Sequence record: PZ445487.1
DNA: 64,000 nucleotides
Source: a phage
Strand: one strand, 5' to 3'
Under the pieces are notes generated by a model. That model searched no databases and was not told where the DNA came from. It saw only the letters and a program-made list of their open reading frames with translations. Made by a program: the position numbers and the translations under genes. This document shows positions 10,425 to 60,327 of the stretch, piece after piece (position 1 is the first letter of the stretch; every line of letters starts with the position of its first letter).

Positions 10425-10462
10425 CCCAATGCTGGAAATGAAAAAGAGGCCGAAGCCTCTTT
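10425..10462 (-). terminator. rho-independent terminator-like hairpin (aaagaggc-cgaa-gcctcttt) with T-rich tract on the minus strand
   Basis: 8-bp perfect stem directly at the stop of gene 10461..10682. Confidence 0.5.
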
Positions 10463-10682
10463 AATCGTCGTATTGGCCTGTCCTGAAATTCCATTTTCGC
10501 GCCTTGGATAAATCCAAATCTTTGAAAATGCTGCCAAAGATCTTTTTAAAATCAGACTCTTCTTCAAGATCTTTTGGTTTTTTGACAGGCTCCTTAACCA
10601 TACCGCCTTCGGGTTTCCCCACATCGGCGGTCGTGGTTGCCGGAGCAGAAGAGTCTTCAAGGAAATCCTGGAAGCTCTTCAT
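10461..10682 (-). CDS. hypothetical acidic/lysine-rich protein (73 aa)
   Basis: ORF track; ATG 10682 right after the stop of the Ig-like gene; followed by terminator hairpin. Confidence 0.4.
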   Translation of the reverse strand: MKSFQDFLEDSSAPATTTADVGKPEGGMVKEPVKKPKDLEEESDFKKIFGSIFKDLDLSKARKWNFRTGQYDD

Positions 10683-31593: not shown

Positions 31594-31964
31594 TGAAAAA
31601 CTTCGCACAAGAATTACAGACTACGATTGACCAGGCTCAGATTTGGGAAGCCATGGGGATAGTTGAAAAAGCCGTTGATATCTTTGTTTGCAAAATGAAG
31701 AAGCAACTCGTTTCCCAAGCAAATCGCGGAGTTGAAATTGATGACATGGTGTACGCTGTTGGTGGCCACAGGTTTGACGAAATATTAACCGCATTTCAAC
31801 AGGCATATAAGTCTCAAAAATACCCAACAGACAAGCAAGTCGAAAAGTTCAAAACATTGTTGGTGGCGAGTCTTCTGAAGGAAGGTTTGAAGTTCGAATT
31901 ACACAAGGATGAAAGAACAGATGTCGTAACAATGAGATTCACAGTACACACAAACGATATCTAA
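31590..31964 (+). CDS. hypothetical protein (124 aa)
   Basis: ORF track; ATGA overlap with upstream gene. Confidence 0.5.
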   Translation: MMKNFAQELQTTIDQAQIWEAMGIVEKAVDIFVCKMKKQLVSQANRGVEIDDMVYAVGGHRFDEILTAFQQAYKSQKYPTDKQVEKFKTLLVASLLKEGLKFELHKDERTDVVTMRFTVHTNDI

Positions 31965-31995
31965 AACAAAGGGGCATTAAGCCCCTTTGTTTATT
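31965..31995. terminator. bidirectional terminator hairpin (aaaggggc-attaa-gcccctt) between convergent genes
   Basis: 8-bp stem flanked by A-run and T-run. Confidence 0.55.
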
Positions 31996-32449
31996 TCCCA
32001 TCCCAAAAGTCGTCTTCATCGTCTACTTCATCAAACGCAGAATCCAATTCTTCGTCAGAGTACTCTGGAAGACGACCATTCTGTTTCAGATATTCAATTT
32101 CGTCATCTTCCAATTGAAGATCCGTGGCTATAAACAGCGCCCCTGTTTCTTCATCGTGCTCAATACTGTAAGATGTATATTCAGCACCCTGGACTGTAAT
32201 GATGATAGACGTCGGGTCTTCTGGGTCCACATGGGCTTCAAACGGGATACCGTCAATCGGGGCGTCCTCTAAAAATGTAGCAAGAGCTACGGCGGCGCGG
32301 ACGACGTCTGTCCCTTGCACGGAAGCATAAATCTCTTCAGCGCCTGTTTCCCCGCGCTCAAAGAATTCAATCGTAGTCCCGTCTTGAACACCAGTCCAGA
32401 TAGGCATGTCTGCTGGGGAATCCGCTTCAAATAATTTCGAAATTGGCAT
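31991..32449 (-). CDS. hypothetical acidic protein (152 aa)
   Basis: ORF track; highly acidic C-terminus. Confidence 0.5.
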   Translation of the reverse strand: MPISKLFEADSPADMPIWTGVQDGTTIEFFERGETGAEEIYASVQGTDVVRAAVALATFLEDAPIDGIPFEAHVDPEDPTSIIITVQGAEYTSYSIEHDEETGALFIATDLQLEDDEIEYLKQNGRLPEYSDEELDSAFDEVDDEDDFWDGK

Positions 32450-32484
32450 GGTAATGTCCTCTTGAATAAACCGCTTTGGACTAT

Positions 32485-32934
32485 TTAGGCTTCTCTGGTC
32501 GCCAACCCTGGCTTAAACACCACCATTTCCTCAACGTTATTGGCACTCATAGAGGCTATAGAATCGAACCCTTTGTTGATAAGTTCTTTCACATTATCAT
32601 GTATCTTACCAGGCTTTATCCCCAACTCTCGCATTTTATTTTCCCACACCGAAACATTGTTGGAATCTATTACAAGAGTCTTCTTGGCCTTGACACGAAA
32701 TGCCATGACAATAGGTTCACCAGATTGACGATAGCGCACGGCATTTTCTGCGTAGATCTGTGCCTTTTCTGGATCCCCCGTCAGGTAAAACCCAGCACCC
32801 ATCGTACCAGAGTCAGTCTGGCCAAATTTTTCAAAATCAAAGATATCGAATTCAACATTAGACCCATGATACAAAACGATATTCGTAAAATCAGGTAACG
32901 TTGATTCGCGATAAAATTCTAGAAAGGTTTTCAT
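32485..32934 (-). CDS. ADP-ribosyltransferase-fold protein (PARP-like H-Y-E class; Tpt1/KptA C-domain-like)
   Basis: 149 aa; VLYHGSNVEF ... MGAGFYLTGDPEKAQIYAENA parallels the PARP/Tpt1 NAD-binding signature (HGS, GxGxYFA, second Tyr). Confidence 0.4.
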   Translation of the reverse strand: MKTFLEFYRESTLPDFTNIVLYHGSNVEFDIFDFEKFGQTDSGTMGAGFYLTGDPEKAQIYAENAVRYRQSGEPIVMAFRVKAKKTLVIDSNNVSVWENKMRELGIKPGKIHDNVKELINKGFDSIASMSANNVEEMVVFKPGLATREA

Positions 32935-32973
32935 AGATACCCCACACTGGTCGTATGGGGTATTTAGGATGGA

Positions 32974-34167
32974 TTAGCTGGGGACAAACTCATTCACAGG
33001 AACATGTTCAGGTATTGATAATTCAGGACAAGCAGCTTTCATCGCTTCCAGATATGGCTTGCTACCCACGATCCAAAACAATGAGTTCTCATTAAGCAAT
33101 TCTGGTTTGTGTTCCTGTATCCATGTCATCACCTTCCCTTCATAACGAGGATGCAACTCAATATCTCCCCACTGGTAATCCATGAGGTCGTTGTAACGAA
33201 CCCAATTAGTGGTATGAAGATCCCAATGGTGTACCTCAAAACGAGGAAGCACGATATCCGGCTCGTTCTTTGGCCTGATACCACTTAGGAGGCCAGCCAG
33301 CGAAACGCTCTTAGAGGCATGCTGGAGATCCTTCTTACCATACACATAGTCTGGGTTGTCGTGATAGCGACGAGTGAAATCAGTTATGTGAGGGAGGTTT
33401 GCTTGCTTACCGATAATGCGCAAACGACTTTCAATGAAATCTAATCGGTTTGGGCCAATCCCGATCAGATAAACATTCTTCAGATTTGGTTTCGGATGCA
33501 TCGCCAAACCTGTCAGGATACTGGTGCATGAATTACAAGAACCAGCAGGAATGATCAGATCAGTGATATGGTCTGGGATATTGGCAACCTGCTCGCCACC
33601 CAGCATATGGAATCCAGCAATGCGTTCTGGTGAATGAACGGTATGATCCAATGTAATGCCATATTCCAGATAATACGCCTTTGGATTTAATTGTTCAATG
33701 AGTTTCTTACAGCGCGGCTGAATGGTGCTATTGTAACCAGATCCAACAAAGTTGAACTCACTACCAAACCATGCTGACATTGAAACCATATCATGATTCA
33801 TGCATGTGGTTGGTTTAGTGGCACCCAGCACAGTGGTTGTCTTACCGCCGAAATGCCGTGAGACTGCCGTCGCCATAGGGGACTGCGGACTACCAACGAC
33901 AGTACCATGGATAAGATCTGGGGATCCTCCAGCTTTCAGATGCTCCATCATGAGCCAGATGGCCTGACGGAGTTTGCTGCCATTGATCCCCTGCTTGCCA
34001 TTCATATAGCATGACAAAGGCGCGAAGTAATCTTCACGTTTGAACCAAACCTGCTGATTGGTTTCTGGATTGGCAATGAGTTCGCACGGGGTGTGTTTGT
34101 AGAGATAATCTTCCCAATGAACCAGATCGCGGTTGAGGGAAAGAGTATCGAAGATGGTTTTGTTCAT
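32974..34167 (-). CDS. PLP-dependent enzyme, fold-type II (ACC deaminase / D-cysteine desulfhydrase-like)
   Basis: 397 aa; NGSKLRQAIWLMMEHLKAGG resembles the GGNKxRKLEF PLP-lysine motif. Confidence 0.5.
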   Translation of the reverse strand: MNKTIFDTLSLNRDLVHWEDYLYKHTPCELIANPETNQQVWFKREDYFAPLSCYMNGKQGINGSKLRQAIWLMMEHLKAGGSPDLIHGTVVGSPQSPMATAVSRHFGGKTTTVLGATKPTTCMNHDMVSMSAWFGSEFNFVGSGYNSTIQPRCKKLIEQLNPKAYYLEYGITLDHTVHSPERIAGFHMLGGEQVANIPDHITDLIIPAGSCNSCTSILTGLAMHPKPNLKNVYLIGIGPNRLDFIESRLRIIGKQANLPHITDFTRRYHDNPDYVYGKKDLQHASKSVSLAGLLSGIRPKNEPDIVLPRFEVHHWDLHTTNWVRYNDLMDYQWGDIELHPRYEGKVMTWIQEHKPELLNENSLFWIVGSKPYLEAMKAACPELSIPEHVPVNEFVPS

Positions 34168-34236
34168 TCTATTTCTCCTGTAGGCATTGGCTTATCATAG
34201 CGTATCTACAGGAGTATAGAAAAGGAGAATCTCAGA

Positions 34237-34923
34237 TTACTTAGTCAGGAAGTCCAGCAGACGGCGGAAGAACGATTTGCGATCTACTGGTTTCTTCGAT
34301 TCCGGTACAGGATATTGAAGGATAGGTGGGAGTTCAGGGTATCCACCAGGGAAACATTTATCCAGATCATTTAAACTACAACTGGCCAGAGGAGTCGGCT
34401 TCAAAGATTTAATTGCCTGATTCAAATCGGAATTATCCACGACACCCACTTCTTCACCGACCGTAACGCATGGTTTGATTAGAACGGATTTCTTAGATTG
34501 CTCATATTGATGAGCGATATCCAGATATTTCTTGCGCTCTGCGTAGAAATCAACATTCTTTACTTTACGGCGGCGAGCAGTAGAACTCTCTTCACCATAG
34601 AAATCATAACCATTTTTGAATAACCAATTCACGGCTTGCTCAAATGAATTGAATACCATATACAGGCCGCGCCGCCCGTTGACCATATCGTCTTCGCTGG
34701 AATAACCGATGAACACCGCTTGGCCTTTCTTGTTCAGATCAAATGGGGTGCAGACGCCCGTATCATCTAGGGAACGCGGTGCGAGGTGCCCGTCTCTGTA
34801 AATGTAAGCCGGATACAAGAACTCATTCAGAGTGCGCTTGTTGCCTTTATATGTGTACAGACGAGCAAATGGAGGCAGATCACAAACAACATCATTGTAA
34901 TCCCAAATTGTTACATTGCGCAT
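34237..34923 (-). CDS. hypothetical protein (228 aa)
   Basis: ORF track. Confidence 0.5.
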   Translation of the reverse strand: MRNVTIWDYNDVVCDLPPFARLYTYKGNKRTLNEFLYPAYIYRDGHLAPRSLDDTGVCTPFDLNKKGQAVFIGYSSEDDMVNGRRGLYMVFNSFEQAVNWLFKNGYDFYGEESSTARRRKVKNVDFYAERKKYLDIAHQYEQSKKSVLIKPCVTVGEEVGVVDNSDLNQAIKSLKPTPLASCSLNDLDKCFPGGYPELPPILQYPVPESKKPVDRKSFFRRLLDFLTK

Positions 34924-34994
34924 GGTGTTTCCTCAAATCAATGAAGGGGTTTATAAACGGTTAAATTTTAAACCCCTCTTCCTCATTGAACAAA

Positions 34995-35513
34995 TCAAAT
35001 ACTAGTCATATAGAGTGGGACAACCTGCTCAGCGATCAACACGACCTCGGTAATGGTAAAATCACCACCATAAGAGTACAGTTTCATTTGCGCCCCGTTG
35101 GTCGCCAGGTTCCCATCCTTGTCAACGCTGAAGAATGTAATGAAAGACAAAGTGTCCGGCGGCGGTACGCTAGCATCACGACTTCTTGATAACTGGTTCC
35201 CCACAGAACCCACAAAATCTAATATCATGGTTCTATTAGAAGTAGACCCAGACCATGATCCGACAATATTAACCTTCACAGGAAGAATAGAATCATAGGG
35301 AAACGCATGAAATTTGTGATCTGATAATTTAAAGAACGGAGCCAAACCAGTAGGAGAAGAAGGGTTCGGAGTCTTCCCATCCAACACAGTTAACAAATCT
35401 ATTCCAGTTGCCCCAGAAGTTAGAAGTTGTGACAAACCGGAAAATCTGACTTCTGTTTTGATGCGATGGGTCTGAAGCATATTCCCCAAATAGGGAGATA
35501 TCAAAATGGCCAT
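34995..35513 (-). CDS. hypothetical protein (172 aa)
   Basis: ORF track. Confidence 0.5.
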   Translation of the reverse strand: MAILISPYLGNMLQTHRIKTEVRFSGLSQLLTSGATGIDLLTVLDGKTPNPSSPTGLAPFFKLSDHKFHAFPYDSILPVKVNIVGSWSGSTSNRTMILDFVGSVGNQLSRSRDASVPPPDTLSFITFFSVDKDGNLATNGAQMKLYSYGGDFTITEVVLIAEQVVPLYMTSI

Positions 35514-35522
35514 ACTCCCTCC

Positions 35523-35756
35523 TTAAGAAACGATAACCGTCGCATCAGAATTAATTGCCTTAACCCATCCCACCGTCGGCGGGGTTAAAACGACCATATT
35601 TCCTTGATATATGACATGCGCGTTGTTACCCGTTGGAGTGCTGGGGCTATCACACAGATACACAGAACCGTGAGTCACTTGAAGAGTTTTCAAAGATGTG
35701 CCGTCTGAGACTTGCGTCCATGTACTTGCGTTTGGTGTGATCTTAGCAGTTGCCAT
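35523..35756 (-). CDS. hypothetical protein (77 aa)
   Basis: ORF track. Confidence 0.4.
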   Translation of the reverse strand: MATAKITPNASTWTQVSDGTSLKTLQVTHGSVYLCDSPSTPTGNNAHVIYQGNMVVLTPPTVGWVKAINSDATVIVS

Positions 35757-37182: not shown

Positions 37183-37383
37183 TCAACTATGTTTATTCGC
37201 TTCGATCGCCCCTAATTGGGCGTCCGCGTCAGCTTTGGTGTCATGTGTCCCAAGAACTTTAGTCTTGGTGTGGTCAAGGACAACCCACTTATCGCCTCGC
37301 TTTTCAACAAACTCAACAATCTCTTTGTTGTCAGTAGCGAGACCATCCCACTCAGTAAGAAACTCACCGAACGTTTTCATCAT
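37183..37383 (-). CDS. small hypothetical protein (about 66 aa) inside the tRNA island
   Basis: ATG 37383/37380 after GGTGAG; CTAAATA-like motif (plus-strand tatttag at 37412..37418) upstream. Confidence 0.3.
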   Translation of the reverse strand: MMKTFGEFLTEWDGLATDNKEIVEFVEKRGDKWVVLDHTKTKVLGTHDTKADADAQLGAIEANKHS

Positions 37384-55488: not shown

Positions 55489-58400
55489 ATGCAATCTACA
55501 AATTTAAACCGTCGCCCGTATTGGGATGACTGGAATCCTGGGAAACGTTTTTCACGGATTCTTTTTCGTCCGATGCCTATCAAGGTTCAGACTCGCGAAC
55601 TGAACCAGATGCAGACTATTCTTCAGGATCAAATTGAAAAACTGGGCAACCATTTGTTCAAAGATGGTTCTATGGTTATCCCTGGCGGTTTGACGATCAC
55701 TAACGCCGCAGTCTCTTTGAAATTCACTTTGGCGGGTGGTACTGAATTCACCGATCTGGAAGGTATTTCTGAACTCTACGTTTTGGGGAAAGACAATAAC
55801 GCCAAAGCGCGTGTGTTGTCTCTTGAACGTGATCTGTCTGCTCCTGATACGATGTTAGCCATCCTTGAGATGACTGAAGCGGGTAATGCTGACGGATTCC
55901 ATGTTAACGATAATCTGTATTTCCAGACTTACGACGTGAATGATAATTTCATTCGTATTGGTTATGGTATCGCAGCTGCGGTGACTGGTTCTATCGTTGC
56001 TCGTATGACGAAAGGCGTTTACTTCATTCGTGGGATGTTCCTAGACGTTGATGACGCGACTCTTATCGTTGATAAAACTTCGAACACGTCTTCCCACCGC
56101 GTCGGATTTAAAGTCACTGAAACCATCGTGACTGAATCTGAAGACGAATCCCTTTATTCAAATGCTCAGGGAACGATTAACTCCAAAGCCCCAGGCGCTC
56201 ATCGTCTTCGAATAGATCTGGTCTTATCCCGATTTGACTATGACGCGGTGGTTGAAGACTTTGTTGAATTGGCCAAAGTCCGTGATGGTAAAATCCAGTC
56301 TATGGTGACTCAGTCTACCTATAATATTCTGGAAGACACGTTAGCCCAACGGACTTATGAAACCAATGGCGATTACAACGTTTCAACCCATCAGATCGAC
56401 ATCCGCGAACACCTGAAAGTCAATAACAATGGTGGTGTATTCAATGCTGCTGATGGCGGTGACGAAAGTAAATTCGTGTCTGTAATGAAACCAGGTATTT
56501 CCTATGTTCGTGGTCGCCGTATCGAAAACGTCGGGGAAGAGTTGGTGATCGTTGATAAGGCGCGGGATACCGATGTCCTGAACAACACTCCTGTTGCGGT
56601 GGCCACAGGCAATTATCTGGTCACTAAGAATTCTAAAGGTGTGCCAGTGATATCCCGCACCGTCCGATACAAATTACTGAATGCTTCAGGCGTTACCCAG
56701 GCTACAGCACTTTGTATATCAGCTGAACGTAATTCAACAGAATTTCGTCTGTATATGCGCGACCTGGTCGTTACTGGCGATGCATCCACTATCACCAAAG
56801 TGTCTTACGAAGAAAGCGGTATCACCATGTTCTCTGCTGAACTGGAATCCAATCAGTTTAACCAGAGTTCTATGATAGATCTGATCTTCTCTCTTCCGGT
56901 ATTCGGTGTCAAGACTTTAGCACCAACTGGCTCCGTGGATATCAACTACACTGTTCTCAGAACGTATAAAGTGACGTTGGACAACAGCGGCGCGGGTTCT
57001 ATTTCTGCTCCATTGGGATATAGTTTTTCCCCAGAATTTTCGTTATACTCTGCAGCGAAATCAGATGGTTCGGAAGCGCAGTTCGATATCTCTGGTTCTT
57101 TGTCTTTGACTGGTTCTCCGGTCGGTTCGGCGCTGCAGATTTCTCTGGGCAGTGGTAATGCTAACCAGTCAATCAATTTGCTGGCGCTGATGATTCGTAC
57201 CACGGCCACAATCAAAACGAAGACCATCACTGAAACAACTGAAACAGTGACGTTCACCTCGCAGACTAGCCGCCCTTTGGCGAATCACGATGGTTGGAAA
57301 TTGGTGTCGGTCAAAAACGATACTGGCGCAGACGTGACCTCCAGCTTCGTCCTAGATGGCGGACAGCGTGATGCAGGGTATTACAAGTCTAACTTGTTAT
57401 CCAGCGCTGGAGCAATCTCAGGGACGTATACAGTGGTGTATCAATACTTCGCCCACAGTTCCGGTGATTTCTTCTCTGCTGATTCGTATACTTCGATGGA
57501 TTATAAAGATATCCCGAATTATACATCTTCTACATCAGGCGCGGTGTACGGCCTGGCAGATAGTTTGGATTTCCGTCCGAAAATCACCAACGGAACTTCT
57601 GACACAGATATGGTTCGTCCAAACACTGCAGTTATTCTGGACACAGAATATTATCTGCCGCGTATTGACGCGATTTATCTGGCAGACAACGGCGTGTTCG
57701 GAGTGGCTCGTGGCATCAGTTCGAACAATCTGGCTTCTCCAGCAATCCCAGCGAACGCCATGCGTTTGTATGAATTGTTGATCCCGCCGTATACACCGAA
57801 TATTGATGATATTCAAATTCGAACTATTGATAATCGTCGTTATACGATGCGCGATATTGGTAAACTGGAAACCCGTATTTCCAATGTTGAATACTATACC
57901 TCTCTATCACAGCTGGAATCTTCAGCGATGACACAGCAAGTGTTCGACCCCATCACGGGCAATCCCCGTTTCAAAAATGGTATTGCAGCTGATCCGTTCA
58001 AAGACTTCCGGTTGATTGATGACTTGTCTGAAGATTGGATGGGTTCTATCGATACCGAAAACGGACGTCTACGCCCGTTTGTACAACAGAACGTTGTTGA
58101 CATGACTCCTGTTGGCTGGAACAAAGTGATGGATGGGATGGTGGTTTGTAATTACACGCCTGAAATCTCAGTGAACCAAGAATATGCGACGACGACGATC
58201 AACGTTAACCCGTATGCAGTATTCAATTGGGAAGGTTTCTTGAAGATTAACCCGACCACAGACTACTGGTTCGAAAACTATTATGTTGCGCCGCGTATTA
58301 TCAATGAAACGATCAACACCCGTGGTACTGTACAAGAAGGTTCAGTGTACGGAACATGGCGTACTGTTTCTGTTTCTGATCGTGTTTGGGAACCGCATGG

Positions 58401-60327
58401 TGCTGGTGGTGTGTGGTGGGGATATCGTTACCGCACGACTGTTTCTGCCCGTGATGTCACCACATATACATACACGGACAAAACAACCACGACCATGACT
58501 GGTGAACAGATTGTGGAGACGCAAGTTATCCCATACATGCGCGAGATCGATATTTCTTTCGACGCATCTGGGCTGCGACCTTTCACTCGTATGTATGCGT
58601 TCTTCTCTGGTCGTGACGTCAATCTGTATTGCAAACCGAATGGCGGTAATTTCGGAGACCCAATCACCACTGATGCCAATGGTGCTGTTAAGGGTGTATT
58701 CCGCGTTCCACAGAACGATACAATCAAGTTCAACACAGGCGACAACGTGTTCCGCTTAACGGATAGCCCTGTTGACAGTAAATCTGCGGATGATACACTG
58801 ACCAATGCAGAAATTGTTCATAAATCTTTCGGTAAGAAACAAGGTATTCAAAAGACCTTTGTCAACACTCGTGTCCTGGGTTACACTGCCAGTACTCGCA
58901 CCGAAACCAGCACTTCTGAAGTTGTGGTCGACCAATGGCGTGATCCGATTGCCCAATCGTTTATGGTGGCGACTAAGAATGGCGGCGAGTATATCGAAGG
59001 CGTGGAAGTATTCTTCTCTACCAAGTCACGTGATGTTCCGATCACTCTGGAAATTCGAGAGATGGAGAATGGCTTACCTTCTCACACAGTCATTACTCGT
59101 AAGACTTTGAACCCATCTGAAGTGACGATCTCTACAGACTCTTCCGGCGGTACGAAGTTCACCTTTGATTATCCGGTGTATCTGCAAGCATCTACTGAGT
59201 TTGCTATCGTTTTGTTGGCGAATACCCAGGATTACAACGCGTATATCGCGGAAATGGGCAAGAAAAACCTTCTGTCCAACGAATATATCGCCAAACAACC
59301 GTATACAGGGGTGTTCTTCACTTCTTCAAACGGTTCTACATGGTCTCCAAACCAAATGGCTGATATGAAATTCCGCATATATCGTTGTAACTTCGCTGCG
59401 GGGCAGAACGTTGTAACATTTGATCCGAAGCTCGGGCCAAAACAACGTCCGTTGGGATTGAATACTCTGAACTGCGTAAGCGGGTCTTCTGTTGTGACTG
59501 TGTTTGCACCTGGTCATGGTTTGGTTGCTGGGAACAATGTCACTCTTTCTGAATTGACAGGCGGTTGTGGCTTTACTCCTGAACAACTTAACAAAACGTT
59601 TACTGTGACAGATGCGAGCTATACTTCATTCAAGATTGACGTCGGTACGGCAGCAGACAGCAATGGACAAATCGGTGGAGATAATGCTTCTTTCTTGGGC
59701 AATTATCTGGTTGATATGTTCTATGCCAGCGTTACCAATTCGGCTCTGGAAGGTTCAATTCTGAAATTGGAATACCGTTATCGCGATGCCACTTCAAATT
59801 CTATGTCTGATTGGGCTGAGTTTGAAACTGACACTGACGTGGCATTGCCGACTGAAGGTATCTATCGTCAGGTCGGGGATTTCCAAATCCGAGCCACCAT
59901 GACGCGTAGTGAAAACAACGTGTACACTGCTCCAATGATTGATGGCGATGACCTGAGCGTAATCTTCAACTCATACGGTGTGGATCCATTTGAAGATGTC
60001 TTCAAATACGTGACAAAGGACATCGGATTTGATAATCCGTGTTCTACTGTGAAGTTGTTCTTTGGTGCAATGCTCCCATCTCAGTCTTCGATGAAGGTGC
60101 AGGTGAAACTTCTACGAGCAGGGCAAGAGATGGATAGTGTGGCTTGGGAAGACGTCACCCCAACTTCGCCTCTGGTTAACGACGGTTCCACATTCTTTGA
60201 ATATGAGTATGACAAGACTGTGGCGAGCAATAACCCGTTTGTTGGCCTGAAAGTCCGAGCGCTTGTACGGGGGAACCGCGTTGCTCCTCCTTCATTTAAA
60301 GACTTCCGTCTTATTGCTCTGGCATAA
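55489..60327 (+). CDS. large virion structural protein (1612 aa; putative baseplate or tail-associated)
   Basis: Single long ORF with GGAG RBS in the late structural module between tailspikes and neck genes; function inferred from position only. Confidence 0.75.
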   Translation: MQSTNLNRRPYWDDWNPGKRFSRILFRPMPIKVQTRELNQMQTILQDQIEKLGNHLFKDGSMVIPGGLTITNAAVSLKFTLAGGTEFTDLEGISELYVLGKDNNAKARVLSLERDLSAPDTMLAILEMTEAGNADGFHVNDNLYFQTYDVNDNFIRIGYGIAAAVTGSIVARMTKGVYFIRGMFLDVDDATLIVDKTSNTSSHRVGFKVTETIVTESEDESLYSNAQGTINSKAPGAHRLRIDLVLSRFDYDAVVEDFVELAKVRDGKIQSMVTQSTYNILEDTLAQRTYETNGDYNVSTHQIDIREHLKVNNNGGVFNAADGGDESKFVSVMKPGISYVRGRRIENVGEELVIVDKARDTDVLNNTPVAVATGNYLVTKNSKGVPVISRTVRYKLLNASGVTQATALCISAERNSTEFRLYMRDLVVTGDASTITKVSYEESGITMFSAELESNQFNQSSMIDLIFSLPVFGVKTLAPTGSVDINYTVLRTYKVTLDNSGAGSISAPLGYSFSPEFSLYSAAKSDGSEAQFDISGSLSLTGSPVGSALQISLGSGNANQSINLLALMIRTTATIKTKTITETTETVTFTSQTSRPLANHDGWKLVSVKNDTGADVTSSFVLDGGQRDAGYYKSNLLSSAGAISGTYTVVYQYFAHSSGDFFSADSYTSMDYKDIPNYTSSTSGAVYGLADSLDFRPKITNGTSDTDMVRPNTAVILDTEYYLPRIDAIYLADNGVFGVARGISSNNLASPAIPANAMRLYELLIPPYTPNIDDIQIRTIDNRRYTMRDIGKLETRISNVEYYTSLSQLESSAMTQQVFDPITGNPRFKNGIAADPFKDFRLIDDLSEDWMGSIDTENGRLRPFVQQNVVDMTPVGWNKVMDGMVVCNYTPEISVNQEYATTTINVNPYAVFNWEGFLKINPTTDYWFENYYVAPRIINETINTRGTVQEGSVYGTWRTVSVSDRVWEPHGAGGVWWGYRYRTTVSARDVTTYTYTDKTTTTMTGEQIVETQVIPYMREIDISFDASGLRPFTRMYAFFSGRDVNLYCKPNGGNFGDPITTDANGAVKGVFRVPQNDTIKFNTGDNVFRLTDSPVDSKSADDTLTNAEIVHKSFGKKQGIQKTFVNTRVLGYTASTRTETSTSEVVVDQWRDPIAQSFMVATKNGGEYIEGVEVFFSTKSRDVPITLEIREMENGLPSHTVITRKTLNPSEVTISTDSSGGTKFTFDYPVYLQASTEFAIVLLANTQDYNAYIAEMGKKNLLSNEYIAKQPYTGVFFTSSNGSTWSPNQMADMKFRIYRCNFAAGQNVVTFDPKLGPKQRPLGLNTLNCVSGSSVVTVFAPGHGLVAGNNVTLSELTGGCGFTPEQLNKTFTVTDASYTSFKIDVGTAADSNGQIGGDNASFLGNYLVDMFYASVTNSALEGSILKLEYRYRDATSNSMSDWAEFETDTDVALPTEGIYRQVGDFQIRATMTRSENNVYTAPMIDGDDLSVIFNSYGVDPFEDVFKYVTKDIGFDNPCSTVKLFFGAMLPSQSSMKVQVKLLRAGQEMDSVAWEDVTPTSPLVNDGSTFFEYEYDKTVASNNPFVGLKVRALVRGNRVAPPSFKDFRLIALA

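What the first reader, a model, noticed from the sequence alone, without database searches (positions are those of the whole stretch)
32485..32934. Compact PARP-like (H-Y-E) ADP-ribosyltransferase-fold protein next to a PLP enzyme
A 149-aa protein carries the HGS, GxGxYxT and second-Tyr signature of PARP/Tpt1/DarT-type NAD-binding domains but lacks the Tpt1 RNA-binding N-domain. It could ADP-ribosylate a host target or a nucleic acid. It sits a few kb upstream of the tRNA island, so an RNA-directed role (Tpt1-like 2'-phosphotransferase chemistry) is also conceivable.
Basis: partly seen in the sequence, partly recalled or inferred. Interest (0 to 1): 0.65.

Follow-up and report, generated by a model that had tools for sequence, protein, structure and literature searches.

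The report
Virion-packaged ADP-ribosyltransferase of phage CBA120
The 149-residue protein is a real, probably active ADP-ribosyltransferase of a known phage family that is made late, found in phage particles and most likely injected with the DNA to modify a host molecule; it is unrelated to the neighbouring PLP enzyme and tRNA genes.

Summary

The context points to a particle-borne effector:
- A late promoter (CTAAATA) sits in the 39-nt gap after the PLP gene.
- A hairpin buries the ribosome-binding site on read-through transcripts only.
- Orthologues were detected in purified virions of Sajous1 and LIMEstone1.
- The N-terminus MKTFLEFYRE resembles the T4 capsid targeting sequence MKTYQEFIAE.
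- In uncultured T4-like phages, 38-41% identical homologues lie beside the head genes, among small ORFs that share only this N-terminus.

The PLP neighbour is the orthologue of ViI gp226, the proven O-serinyl-thymidine decarboxylase of DNA hypermodification. No functional link to it is evident, nor to the tRNA island.

Best reading: a late-made, head-packaged, injected mono-ADP-ribosyltransferase that works like T4 Alt, with an unknown target. It is a new member of a known kind. Interest is moderate.

The parts
32485..32934 (-). CDS of the 149-aa ADP-ribosyltransferase (CBA120 orf229/gp178; 16.8 kDa, pI 5.45)
   Evidence: ORF; 100% identical to the CBA120 annotation; Pfam ART-PolyVal 41.9 bits vs cut-off 31.2; phrog_4700; mass and pI
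32905..32934 (-). Codons 1-10, MKTFLEFYRE: N-terminal segment resembling the T4 capsid targeting sequence MKTYQEFIAE. It lies outside the ART fold (pLDDT 48 for residues 1-10).
   Evidence: 6/10 identical to the T4 CTS (CTS quoted in PMC8442874). M1-K2-T3-F4-L5 are at least 90% conserved while residues 8-18 vary. The motif is kept in 34-48% identical homologues. Only 3 of 6152 Met codons in the six-frame CBA120 translation carry MK[TS]F.[ED]F.
32509..32880 (-). ART catalytic domain, residues 19-142, with H23 (32866-32868), Y50 (32785-32787), Y61 (32752-32754) and E136 (32527-32529)
32961..32967 (-). Late promoter box CTAAATA, 26 nt before the ATG, inside the 39-nt gap between the PLP gene and the ART gene
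   Evidence: 18 of 25 CTAAATA sites in the genome lie 21-37 nt before an ORF start, mostly of structural genes, against 17.6% for permuted 7-mers. The SPTD1 GenBank record annotates 'Kuttervirus late gene promoter' at the same place. The box is invariant in 8 phages spanning several Ackermannviridae lineages.
32937..32963 (-). Hairpin AAATACCCCATAC-loop-GTGTGGGGTAT whose 3' arm holds the Shine-Dalgarno GGGG. Its 5' arm overlaps the promoter box and the first transcribed bases.
   Evidence: RNAfold gives -18.7 kcal/mol for a read-through leader and -2.1 for leaders starting 6-8 nt after the box. Both arms are invariant and the loop is variable in 8 phages, with one U.G to U-A change. The same box-CCCCAT...ATGGGGTAT design precedes the tailspike genes.
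32482..32488 (-). Second late promoter box CTAAATA, overlapping the ART stop codon and serving orf230
   Evidence: annotated as a Kuttervirus late gene promoter in SPTD1
31991..32449 (-). orf230/gp179, a 152-aa very acidic protein (pI 4.05) that is adjacent in all Ackermannviridae relatives examined and is also found in virions. It is a possible partner. Its fold is unassigned.
31968..31988 (.). Bidirectional terminator-like hairpin that closes the late ART/orf230 transcripts against the convergent orf231
37183..37380 (-). orf223, 65 aa, N-terminus MKTFGEFLTE (L-T-E at positions 8-10), with its own CTAAATA box: a second CTS-type small ORF of the same phage
10461..10682 (-). orf007, 73 aa, N-terminus MKSFQDFLED, directly after the Hoc-like Ig-domain head protein gene: a third CTS-type small ORF

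Best explanation
gp178 is a stand-alone member of the ART-PolyVal family, in the H-Y-[EDQ] clade that also holds diphtheria toxin and the PARPs. It has an intact NAD+ site (H23, Y50, Y61, E136). It is expressed only late. It has its own late promoter, and the ribosome-binding site is buried in a hairpin on any transcript that reads through from the PLP gene; late transcripts should start inside that hairpin and so leave the site free. Its first ten residues act like the T4 internal-protein capsid targeting sequence, so the enzyme is incorporated into the prohead, perhaps trimmed by the T4-gp21-like protease, and kept in the mature particle. At the next infection it enters the cell with the DNA. 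There it uses host NAD+ to mono-ADP-ribosylate a host macromolecule, most probably a protein, before any phage gene is expressed. The purpose would be host take-over or neutralising a defence. Functionally it parallels T4 Alt and the ART modules of injected polyvalent proteins. Shown here: fold and family, conserved catalytic residues, and the late promoter/hairpin anatomy. Taken from published proteomes of relatives: presence in virions. Inferred: CTS-driven head packaging, cleavage, injection, enzymatic activity and the class of target.
For: Family and fold:
- Pfam ART-PolyVal scores above its cut-off.
- A profile search found 1978 cluster representatives at E<=0.001, many of them 2000-7000-aa multidomain proteins carrying one to five copies of the domain.
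- The AF2 model has pLDDT 85.
- H, Y, Y and E are conserved family-wide.

Late expression:
- The CTAAATA box shows 18/25 positional enrichment against 17.6% in controls.
- The SPTD1 record carries an independent promoter annotation at the same site.
- Box and hairpin arms are invariant across lineages while the loop varies.
- Predicted stability is -18.7 kcal/mol for read-through leaders against -2.1 for late leaders.

Virion presence:
- CsCl-purified Sajous1 virions gave gp116 (the orthologue) 10 spectra and gp115 31 spectra. The adjacent PLP gp117 and gp118 were not listed.
- LIMEstone1 ORF173 and ORF174 were detected, and the authors state that all 12 unknown structural proteins have structural counterparts in ViI.
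- ViI labels Vi01_183 and Vi01_184 'phage associated protein', whereas the neighbours are 'putative uncharacterised protein'.

Capsid targeting:
- The N-terminus is 6/10 identical to the T4 CTS.
- [LI]-x-E sits at positions 8-10 in 12 of 27 distinct N-termini, the same place as I-A-E in T4.
- CBA120 encodes T4-type scaffold, prohead protease and a gp55-like late sigma factor.
- The looser CTS-like orf109 is a virion protein in Sajous1, as gp215 with 32 spectra.
- In IMG/VR T4-like contigs the homologue follows the gp22 scaffold and gp23 capsid genes. It lies within a run of unrelated small ORFs that all start MK[ST]F[KR][QN][FY].

Concept: head-packaged phage ARTs are already proposed in PMC5512222 and PMC9503650.
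Against: - No activity, NAD+ binding or target has been measured for any member of this subfamily that I could find.
- The spectral counts are modest (10 spectra; 1 peptide in LIMEstone1). The Sajous1 preparation also contained non-structural proteins such as RegB, so contamination is not excluded.
- In CBA120 itself positions 8-10 are Y-R-E, not the canonical [LI]-x-E, so cleavage is uncertain.
- T4 internal proteins are basic, whereas this protein is mildly acidic (pI 5.45).
- The late transcription start site is inferred from T4 spacing, not mapped.
- Location in the head rather than the tail is not shown. The gene cluster also encodes a tail needle-knob-like protein.
- CBA120 has a second, Alt-like ART (orf140), so an RNA-polymerase role may already be filled.
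Confidence: 0.6

Rival explanations
1. The enzyme consumes NAD+ or processes an NAD-derived small molecule rather than transferring ADP-ribose to a macromolecule. It could be an NADase, an NAD+ phosphorylase, or a destroyer of an immune signal. It would be delivered by the virion to pre-empt NAD-dependent host defences or to shut down host metabolism.
Against: The best matches are protein-modifying enzymes (DT, PARP10/15, tankyrase, SAIP). The full H-Y-Y-E set typical of transferases is kept. Depleting NAD+ at the start of one's own infection would be costly for a phage that depends on host metabolism.
Confidence: 0.15
2. It acts on nucleic acid. It would ADP-ribosylate DNA (DarT- or pierisin-like) or remove or transfer RNA 2'-phosphates (Tpt1-like), possibly linked to the tRNA island or to the phage's hypermodified DNA and the adjacent PLP decarboxylase.
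For: The gene is adjacent to the DNA-hypermodification decarboxylase and 3.2 kb from four tRNA genes. Some H-Y-E enzymes can modify DNA ends (general knowledge).
Against: - There is no Tpt1 N-terminal lobe, and the second active-site position is Y rather than the H of the H-H-h clade.
- No Pfam hit to DarT or PTS_2-RNA was found.
- 5-NeOmdU synthesis was reconstituted from kinase, transferase and decarboxylase alone.
- A separate late promoter and a translational block uncouple the gene from the PLP gene.
- Homologues in T4-like contigs have no PLP or tRNA neighbours.
- PLP gp117 is not listed among the Sajous1 virion proteins, whereas the ART is.
Confidence: 0.07
3. It is a minor structural or assembly protein whose ART fold is no longer catalytic (a pseudo-enzyme, like TASOR or RCD1), or a virion contaminant with an intracellular late function.
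Against: H23 is invariant in 277/277 domains, and G24, S/T25, G48, Y50, Y61 and E136 are strongly conserved. This conservation is hard to explain without NAD+ chemistry. Pseudo-PARPs typically lose these residues.
Confidence: 0.08

Closest known systems
ART-PolyVal domain (Pfam PF18760; Tox-ART-HYD2-related ARTs of phage and plasmid polyvalent proteins; Iyer et al. 2017, PMC5512222)
   Same: Sequence family membership, above the Pfam cut-off. H in strand 1, Y in strand 2 and an acidic residue in strand 5. A predicted role as an effector delivered with the invading DNA.
   Different: It is a 149-aa single-domain protein rather than a module of a 2-15-domain giant. Strand 5 carries E, whereas the family description gives D. 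Delivery appears to use a short N-terminal targeting peptide instead of fusion to MuF, a metallopeptidase or other modules.
T4 Alt (head-packaged, injected ADP-ribosyltransferase)
   Same: Made late, carried in the particle, and presumed to act on host proteins immediately on injection.
   Different: Alt belongs to the R-S-E clade, is about 75 kDa and shares no sequence similarity. CBA120 separately encodes an Alt-like ART (orf140).
T4 internal proteins IPI/IPII/IPIII and their capsid targeting sequence (MKTYQEFIAE)
   Same: A roughly 10-residue N-terminal peptide of the same pattern, M-K-T-aromatic-x-E-F-hydrophobic-x-E. In homologue-bearing T4-like contigs the genes lie in a variable array of unrelated small ORFs that share only that peptide, beside the head genes.
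   Different: T4 IPs are basic, non-enzymatic or anti-restriction proteins. Here the cargo is an enzyme. In CBA120, position 8 is Y rather than I or L. Neither processing nor location in the head has been shown.
AcrIF11 (132-137-aa phage/plasmid ADP-ribosyltransferase that modifies Cas8f N250)
   Different: No detectable sequence relationship. AcrIF11Pae1 uses H-F-H-D rather than H-Y-Y-E. It is expressed from an early anti-CRISPR locus and is not known to be packaged. The hosts of CBA120 are not known to rely on type I-F CRISPR.
Diphtheria toxin / PARP catalytic domains
   Different: No translocation, receptor-binding or regulatory domains, and about 15-20% identity only. Nothing suggests poly-ADP-ribosylation.

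Membership tests
ART-PolyVal (PF18760) | Score above the curated Pfam gathering threshold | tested here: met
   41.9 bits against a cut-off of 31.2, residues 19-142. UniRef already names the cluster 'ART-PolyVal-like domain-containing protein'.
ART-PolyVal (PF18760) | Active site H (strand 1), Y (strand 2) and an acidic residue (strand 5; D in Iyer et al. 2017) | tested here: met
   H23, Y50 and E136. E, not D, is found in 58 of 63 aligned relatives. The D configuration is quoted.
ART-PolyVal (PF18760) | Occurs as a module of large multidomain 'polyvalent' proteins | tested here: not met
   This protein is single-domain, 149 aa. Many relatives are 2000-7000-aa proteins with up to 5 copies. Solo forms are also common.
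H-Y-[EDQ] clade of the ART superfamily (diphtheria toxin / PARP-like) | H-G-[ST], G-x-G-x-Y-x-[TS], a second aromatic residue 11 residues later, and E-x-hydrophobic strand 5 | tested here: met
H-Y-[EDQ] clade of the ART superfamily (diphtheria toxin / PARP-like) | ART fold | tested here: met
   [not shown]
H-Y-[EDQ] clade of the ART superfamily (diphtheria toxin / PARP-like) | NAD+ binding and ADP-ribose transfer | not testable with these tools
   Requires biochemistry.
Tpt1/KptA RNA 2'-phosphotransferase (H-H-h clade) | N-terminal RNA-binding lobe plus an H-H-h active site | tested here: not met
   [not shown]
DarT DNA ADP-ribosyltransferase | Sequence or fold membership in DarT | tested here: not met
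   [not shown]
T4 Alt/ModA/ModB (R-S-E clade) | R-S-E catalytic triad | tested here: not met
   The protein has an H-Y-E configuration. The Alt-like PHROG 832 hit belongs to a different CBA120 gene, orf140.
T4-type CTS-bearing internal head proteins | N-terminal ~10-residue peptide of the MKTYQEFIAE type | tested here: met
   MKTFLEFYRE, 6/10 identical. Conserved in orthologues and in 34-48% identical homologues.
T4-type CTS-bearing internal head proteins | Prohead-protease site [LI]-x-E closing the CTS | tested here: inconclusive
   Y-R-E in CBA120. L-R-E, L-K-E, L-Q-E, L-A-E or I-T-E at positions 8-10 in 12 of 27 distinct N-termini. The cleavage rule comes from general knowledge of T4 gp21.
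T4-type CTS-bearing internal head proteins | Physical presence inside the capsid and processing | not testable with these tools
   Virion association of orthologues is reported by mass spectrometry. Head versus tail location and the mature N-terminus are unknown.

The most novel reading that the evidence does not exclude
Ackermannviridae and a group of uncultured T4-like phages deliver effector domains as separate small proteins, each addressed to the capsid by a T4-like CTS. In other phages the same domains are fused into giant polyvalent proteins. gp178 would then be an injected enzymatic anti-defence factor. It would ADP-ribosylate a host immune or surveillance protein within seconds of DNA entry, before any phage transcription, possibly helped or held in check by the co-packaged acidic gp179.
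Probability: 0.2. Interest if true: 0.7.

Novelty: new member of a known kind. Interest (0 to 1): 0.4.

Why it matters
I found no experimentally characterised member of the ART-PolyVal family, although it is the commonest predicted protein-modifying module of injected phage and plasmid polyvalent proteins. CBA120 is a genetically tractable, well-studied E. coli O157:H7 phage, and here the domain occurs alone as a 17-kDa protein. That makes it a convenient entry point for finding what these enzymes modify. If the N-terminal peptide is a working capsid-targeting signal, it would extend the T4 CTS principle to another phage family. It would also give a handle for packaging foreign proteins into Ackermannviridae particles that are already used as reporter and biocontrol phages. 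For annotation, the result separates this gene from the DNA-hypermodification pathway next door.

Tried and rejected
- Sequence searches of the protein and of its orthologue profile against PDB chains gave only chance hits.
- NCBIfam has no model for the ART, PLP, orf227, orf230 or orf140 proteins.
- P0046 is a 1071-aa protein with three ART-PolyVal copies. I suspected it was the cyanophage A4 chain 9k3a_B because the lengths match, but it has no PDB sequence match.
- The published Sajous1 'ferrojan horse operon' gp214-217 is a different locus, orthologous to CBA120 orf111-orf108, not this cluster. The relevant Sajous1 genes are gp115-gp120.
- I recalled that the Det7 genome announcement described the late promoter or a virion proteome. 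It does neither.
- The T4 late box TATAAATA is rare here, 5 in the genome, and absent upstream of this gene. CTAAATA is the relevant box.
- The sigma-70 promoter scan of the region was at background level, 7 found against 8.1 expected.
- Isolated phages other than Ackermannviridae hold essentially no close homologue. Context outside the family therefore had to come from IMG/VR contigs.

Full report
**Identity of the window and the gene.** The region 31900-35600 is 100% identical to Escherichia phage CBA120 (Kuttervirus, Ackermannviridae). More than 150 related phages match at 80-99%. The reported ORF, 32485..32934 on the minus strand, is CBA120 orf229/gp178, annotated 'hypothetical protein'. 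A few related GenBank records call the orthologue 'ADP-ribose transferase', 'putative structural protein' or 'unknown structural protein'. UniRef already labels its cluster 'ART-PolyVal-like domain-containing protein'.

- Pfam places residues 19-142 in ART-PolyVal (PF18760) at 41.9 bits, against a cut-off of 31.2. DUF3990, of the same clan, falls just below its own cut-off.
- A profile of 22 orthologues found 1978 cluster representatives at E<=0.001 among 1.84 billion proteins. Many are 2000-7000-residue proteins, and many others are stand-alone proteins of about 150 residues.
- I re-aligned the 279 domains found in the 170 proteins held. H23 is invariant (277/277). G24 is kept in 97%, S/T25 in 99%, G48 in 95%, Y50 in 88% (most others F or W) and Y61 in 77% (most others W or F). 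E136 is kept in 58 of the 63 domains that align through the C-terminus.

**Fold.** An AlphaFold2 model built on the orthologue alignment has mean pLDDT 85 and pTM 0.79. Only the first ten residues are poorly defined.
- Foldseek against the PDB returns PARP1, PARP2, PARP4, tankyrases, exotoxin A, MbcT, the anti-CRISPR 6kyf and a cyanophage pre-ejectosome protein.
- Lower down come PARP10 at 7.6, MbcT at 7.4 and AcrIF11 at 6.4. Tpt1/KptA scores only 5.9 and 4.2, and DarT 3.5.

The model therefore sits with the protein-modifying H-Y-E enzymes. It does not sit with the RNA 2'-phosphotransferases, which belong to the H-H-h clade, or with DarT. Iyer et al. described the polyvalent-protein ARTs as H-Y-D. 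This subgroup uses E.

**The PLP neighbour.** The gene at 32974..34167(-) is the orthologue of ViI gp226 (YP_004327553 = Vi01_182), which lies immediately upstream of the ART orthologue Vi01_183. ViI gp226 was purified and shown to decarboxylate O-serinyl-thymidine in DNA to give 5-NeOmdU. The whole pathway was reconstituted from 5-hmdU DNA kinase, an amino-acid:DNA transferase and this decarboxylase (PMC8989533). No ADP-ribosyltransferase is needed. The adjacency is real but has an independent explanation.

**Regulatory anatomy.** The 39-nt gap between the PLP and ART genes reads, on the coding strand, CCTAAATACCCCATACGACCAGTGTGGGGTATCT-ATG.
- I rebuilt the full CBA120 genome from the window and the public record. 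CTAAATA occurs 25 times, and 18 of these lie 21-37 nt upstream of an ATG that opens an ORF.
- Those ORFs are mostly structural or late-type genes: scaffold, sheath, baseplate, three tailspikes, the 1612-aa structural protein and a RuvC-like resolvase.
- Permuted 7-mers show this arrangement in 17.6% of cases. The only controls near 70% are one-base shifts of the same motif.
- The SPTD1 GenBank record independently annotates a 7-nt 'Kuttervirus late gene promoter' at exactly the two equivalent places, before the ART gene and before orf230. [quoted passage not shown]
- CBA120 encodes gp55-like late sigma and gp33-like factors.
- The PLP gene has no such box.

The sequence from the box onward forms a hairpin whose 3' arm contains the Shine-Dalgarno GGGG. 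A read-through leader folds at -18.7 kcal/mol. Leaders that begin 6-8 nt after the box, the T4 late-promoter spacing (general knowledge), lose the 5' arm and fold at -2.1 kcal/mol. In eight phages spanning several Ackermannviridae lineages, the box and both arms are invariant while five loop positions vary. One phage converts a U.G pair to U-A. The same design precedes the tailspike genes. It resembles the classical T4 arrangement at gene e, soc and gene 49, which I cite from general knowledge. The inference is that gp178 is translated only from late transcripts and is deliberately kept off while the upstream DNA-modification gene is expressed. A bidirectional terminator follows orf230.

**Virion association.**
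- CsCl-purified virions of the Kuttervirus Sajous1 gave 10 spectra for gp116 and 31 for gp115. The knob-like gp119 gave 16 and gp120 gave 4 (PMC10892097).
- The Sajous1 gene map shows that gp116 is the ART orthologue and gp115 the orf230 orthologue. PLP gp117 and gp118, which lie between them and gp119, are not listed.
- In Dickeya phage LIMEstone1, ORF173 (17.33 kDa) and ORF174 (16.62 kDa) were each identified by one peptide among 39 virion proteins. The authors state that all 12 unknown structural proteins have structural counterparts in ViI (PMC3296691).
- The LIMEstone1 record carries 'unknown structural protein' on the orthologue.
- ViI labels Vi01_183 and Vi01_184 'phage associated protein', unlike their neighbours.

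The counts are modest, and the Sajous1 sample also contained some non-structural proteins. I therefore rate virion association as likely (about 0.85) rather than proven.

**The N-terminus.** Residues 1-10, MKTFLEFYRE, lie outside the ART fold. M1-K2-T3-F4-L5 are at least 90% conserved among orthologues, while residues 8-18 vary. The T4 capsid targeting sequence is MKTYQEFIAE. It is cleaved once by the prohead protease and suffices to load foreign proteins into T4 heads (PMC8442874).
- The match is 6 of 10 identities, with conservative changes at positions 4 and 8.
- Among 6152 Met codons in all six frames of CBA120, only three are followed by K-[TS]-F-x-[ED]-F. All three are annotated gene starts: the ART, orf223 (MKTFGEFLTE) and orf007 (MKSFQDFLED).
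- orf223 has its own CTAAATA box. orf007 directly follows the Hoc-like head gene.
- A looser match, orf109 (MKPFIEYFKE), also has a late box. Its Sajous1 orthologue gp215 gave 32 spectra.
- Homologues that are 34-48% identical keep the peptide: MKTFEQFLKE, MKTFLEYITE, MLTFEAYLAE.
- In 12 of 27 distinct N-termini, positions 8-10 are [LI]-x-E, the T4 gp21 cleavage motif at the T4 position. CBA120 itself has Y-R-E.

**Context outside Ackermannviridae.** In IMG/VR, seven short contigs (L026-L032) carry homologues that are 38-41% identical.
- In L027 the homologue scores 38.1 bits against Pfam ART-PolyVal. It follows a T4-type scaffold protein (T4_CASP, 237.6 bits), the gp23 major capsid protein (465.6 bits) and a gp19-like protein.
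- It is followed by three further small ORFs starting MKSFKQF... or MKSFKEY..., and then by UvsY and UvsW.
- These small ORFs are otherwise unrelated to the ART. One hits a PHROG profile of 3925 positions, a length typical of polyvalent proteins.

This looks like the variable internal-protein loci of T-even phages, which I know from general knowledge and did not re-check here. None of these contigs has a PLP or tRNA neighbour. So the link between the targeting peptide and the ART is conserved, while the PLP and tRNA adjacency is not.

**Most likely mechanism.** gp178 is synthesised late and addressed to the prohead core by its N-terminal peptide, then possibly trimmed by the T4-like protease encoded by orf190. 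It is retained in the particle and enters the next cell with the DNA. There it would use NAD+ to mono-ADP-ribosylate a host macromolecule, most probably a protein. The analogy is with T4 Alt and with the predicted role of ART modules in polyvalent proteins.
- Shown here: fold, family, catalytic residues and the promoter/hairpin anatomy.
- Taken from published proteomes of relatives: presence in virions.
- Inferred: capsid targeting, cleavage, injection, activity and target class.
- Unknown: the target. CBA120 also encodes an Alt-like ART (orf140, phrog_832), so RNA polymerase is not the only candidate. AcrIF11 shows that a minimal phage ART can be a specific anti-defence enzyme.

**Rivals.** An NADase or phosphorylase activity is not excluded (MbcT and RES neighbours). 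A nucleic-acid target is less well supported, for the reasons given above. A pseudo-enzyme is unlikely given the invariant H23 and the conserved Y, Y and E. Head versus tail location remains open.

**The acidic neighbour.** orf230/gp179 (pI 4.05) has its own late box and is more abundant in virions than the ART. It has an invariant L6-F7-E8 near its N-terminus. Its model is of medium confidence and has no significant structural neighbour. Whether it is a partner, inhibitor or independent cargo cannot be decided here.

**Novelty.** The family, its likely chemistry and the idea of head-packaged phage ARTs are all published, and the protein is already labelled by UniRef. This analysis adds three things. 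First, it assigns the protein to the virion and to late, translationally gated expression. Second, it identifies the T4-CTS-like address and its conservation with the ART in distant T4-like phages. Third, it dissociates the gene from the PLP and tRNA context. I found no mention of a capsid targeting sequence in the main review of viral ARTs, but my literature access is partial. I class the protein as a new member of a known kind, of moderate interest.

Noticed in passing
window 32974-34167 (-): The 'PLP enzyme' is the orthologue of ViI gp226, the experimentally proven PLP-dependent O-serinyl-thymidine decarboxylase that makes 5-NeOmdU in DNA. CBA120 annotates it only as a hypothetical protein, and it scores below Pfam's PALP cut-off (31.4 against 35).
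   Followed up: yes
window 34168-34236 (-): The leader of the PLP gene contains a 9-bp hairpin, CTCCTGTAG...CTACAGGAG, that sequesters its own AGGAG ribosome-binding site. A TATGAT -10-like hexamer sits in the loop region. This may be another case of start-site-dependent translational gating.
   Followed up: no
window 45014, 48228, 50221 (minus strand; CBA120 record 129288, 126074, 124081): The tailspike genes carry the same late box followed by CCCCAT/CCCCTA ... ATGGGGTAT/TAGGGGTAT hairpins that pair the promoter-proximal bases with the Shine-Dalgarno region. The design seems general for a subset of CBA120 late genes.
   Followed up: partly
window 37183-37380 (-) and 10461-10682 (-): Two further small ORFs, orf223 (65 aa) and orf007 (73 aa), start with the T4-CTS-like peptide (MKTFGEFLTE, MKSFQDFLED). 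orf223 lies between tRNA genes and has its own late box. Both are candidate internal head proteins.
   Followed up: partly
L026-L032 (IMG/VR contigs), e.g. L027 3631-5385: Uncultured T4-like phages have an internal-protein-like array beside the gp22/gp23 head genes. It consists of several unrelated small ORFs that share only MK[ST]F[KR][QN][FY] at the N-terminus, one of which is the ART homologue.
   Followed up: partly
L028 5551-5997; L030 538-984; L031 775-1221; CBA120 record 58286-58639 (orf108, outside the window): A ferritin/Dps-like gene sits next to the ART homologue in several T4-like contigs. In CBA120 the Dps-like orf108 is next to the CTS-like orf109. Both have late boxes, and both orthologues (gp217, gp215) were found in Sajous1 virions.
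   Followed up: partly
[not shown]
   Followed up: partly
CBA120 record 77347-77853 (orf140, outside the window; L006 10548-11054): A second ART gene is present in the same phage. It matches the C-terminal part of the Alt-like PHROG 832 'RNA polymerase ADP-ribosylase', and it has no Pfam or NCBIfam hit.
   Followed up: partly
window 34995-35513 (-): orf226 matches the Sf6-type tail needle knob (Pfam 101.4 bits) although the phage is a myovirus. Its orthologues are found in virions (Sajous1 gp119, 16 spectra; LIMEstone1 ORF169). The CBA120 record gives two alternative starts for it.
   Followed up: no
window 34237-34923 (-): orf227 (228 aa) has a weak, sub-threshold match to NDUS4 / ETC complex I subunit (20.9 bits against 31.9). 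It was not listed in the Sajous1 virion proteome, and its function is unknown.
   Followed up: no
phage records OR844942.1 and MN871475.1: Records named 'Enterococcus phage Efm 3-10' and 'Pseudomonas phage Pa-sanjiao' carry this Kuttervirus region at 98-100% identity. They are probably contaminated or mislabelled.
   Followed up: no
L003 4486-4941 (ViI Vi01_184; P0174): The ViI orthologue of orf230 diverges completely over about 22 residues (41-62) and then returns to the consensus. This pattern is typical of a compensated double frameshift, so it is probably a sequencing error in the ViI record.
   Followed up: no
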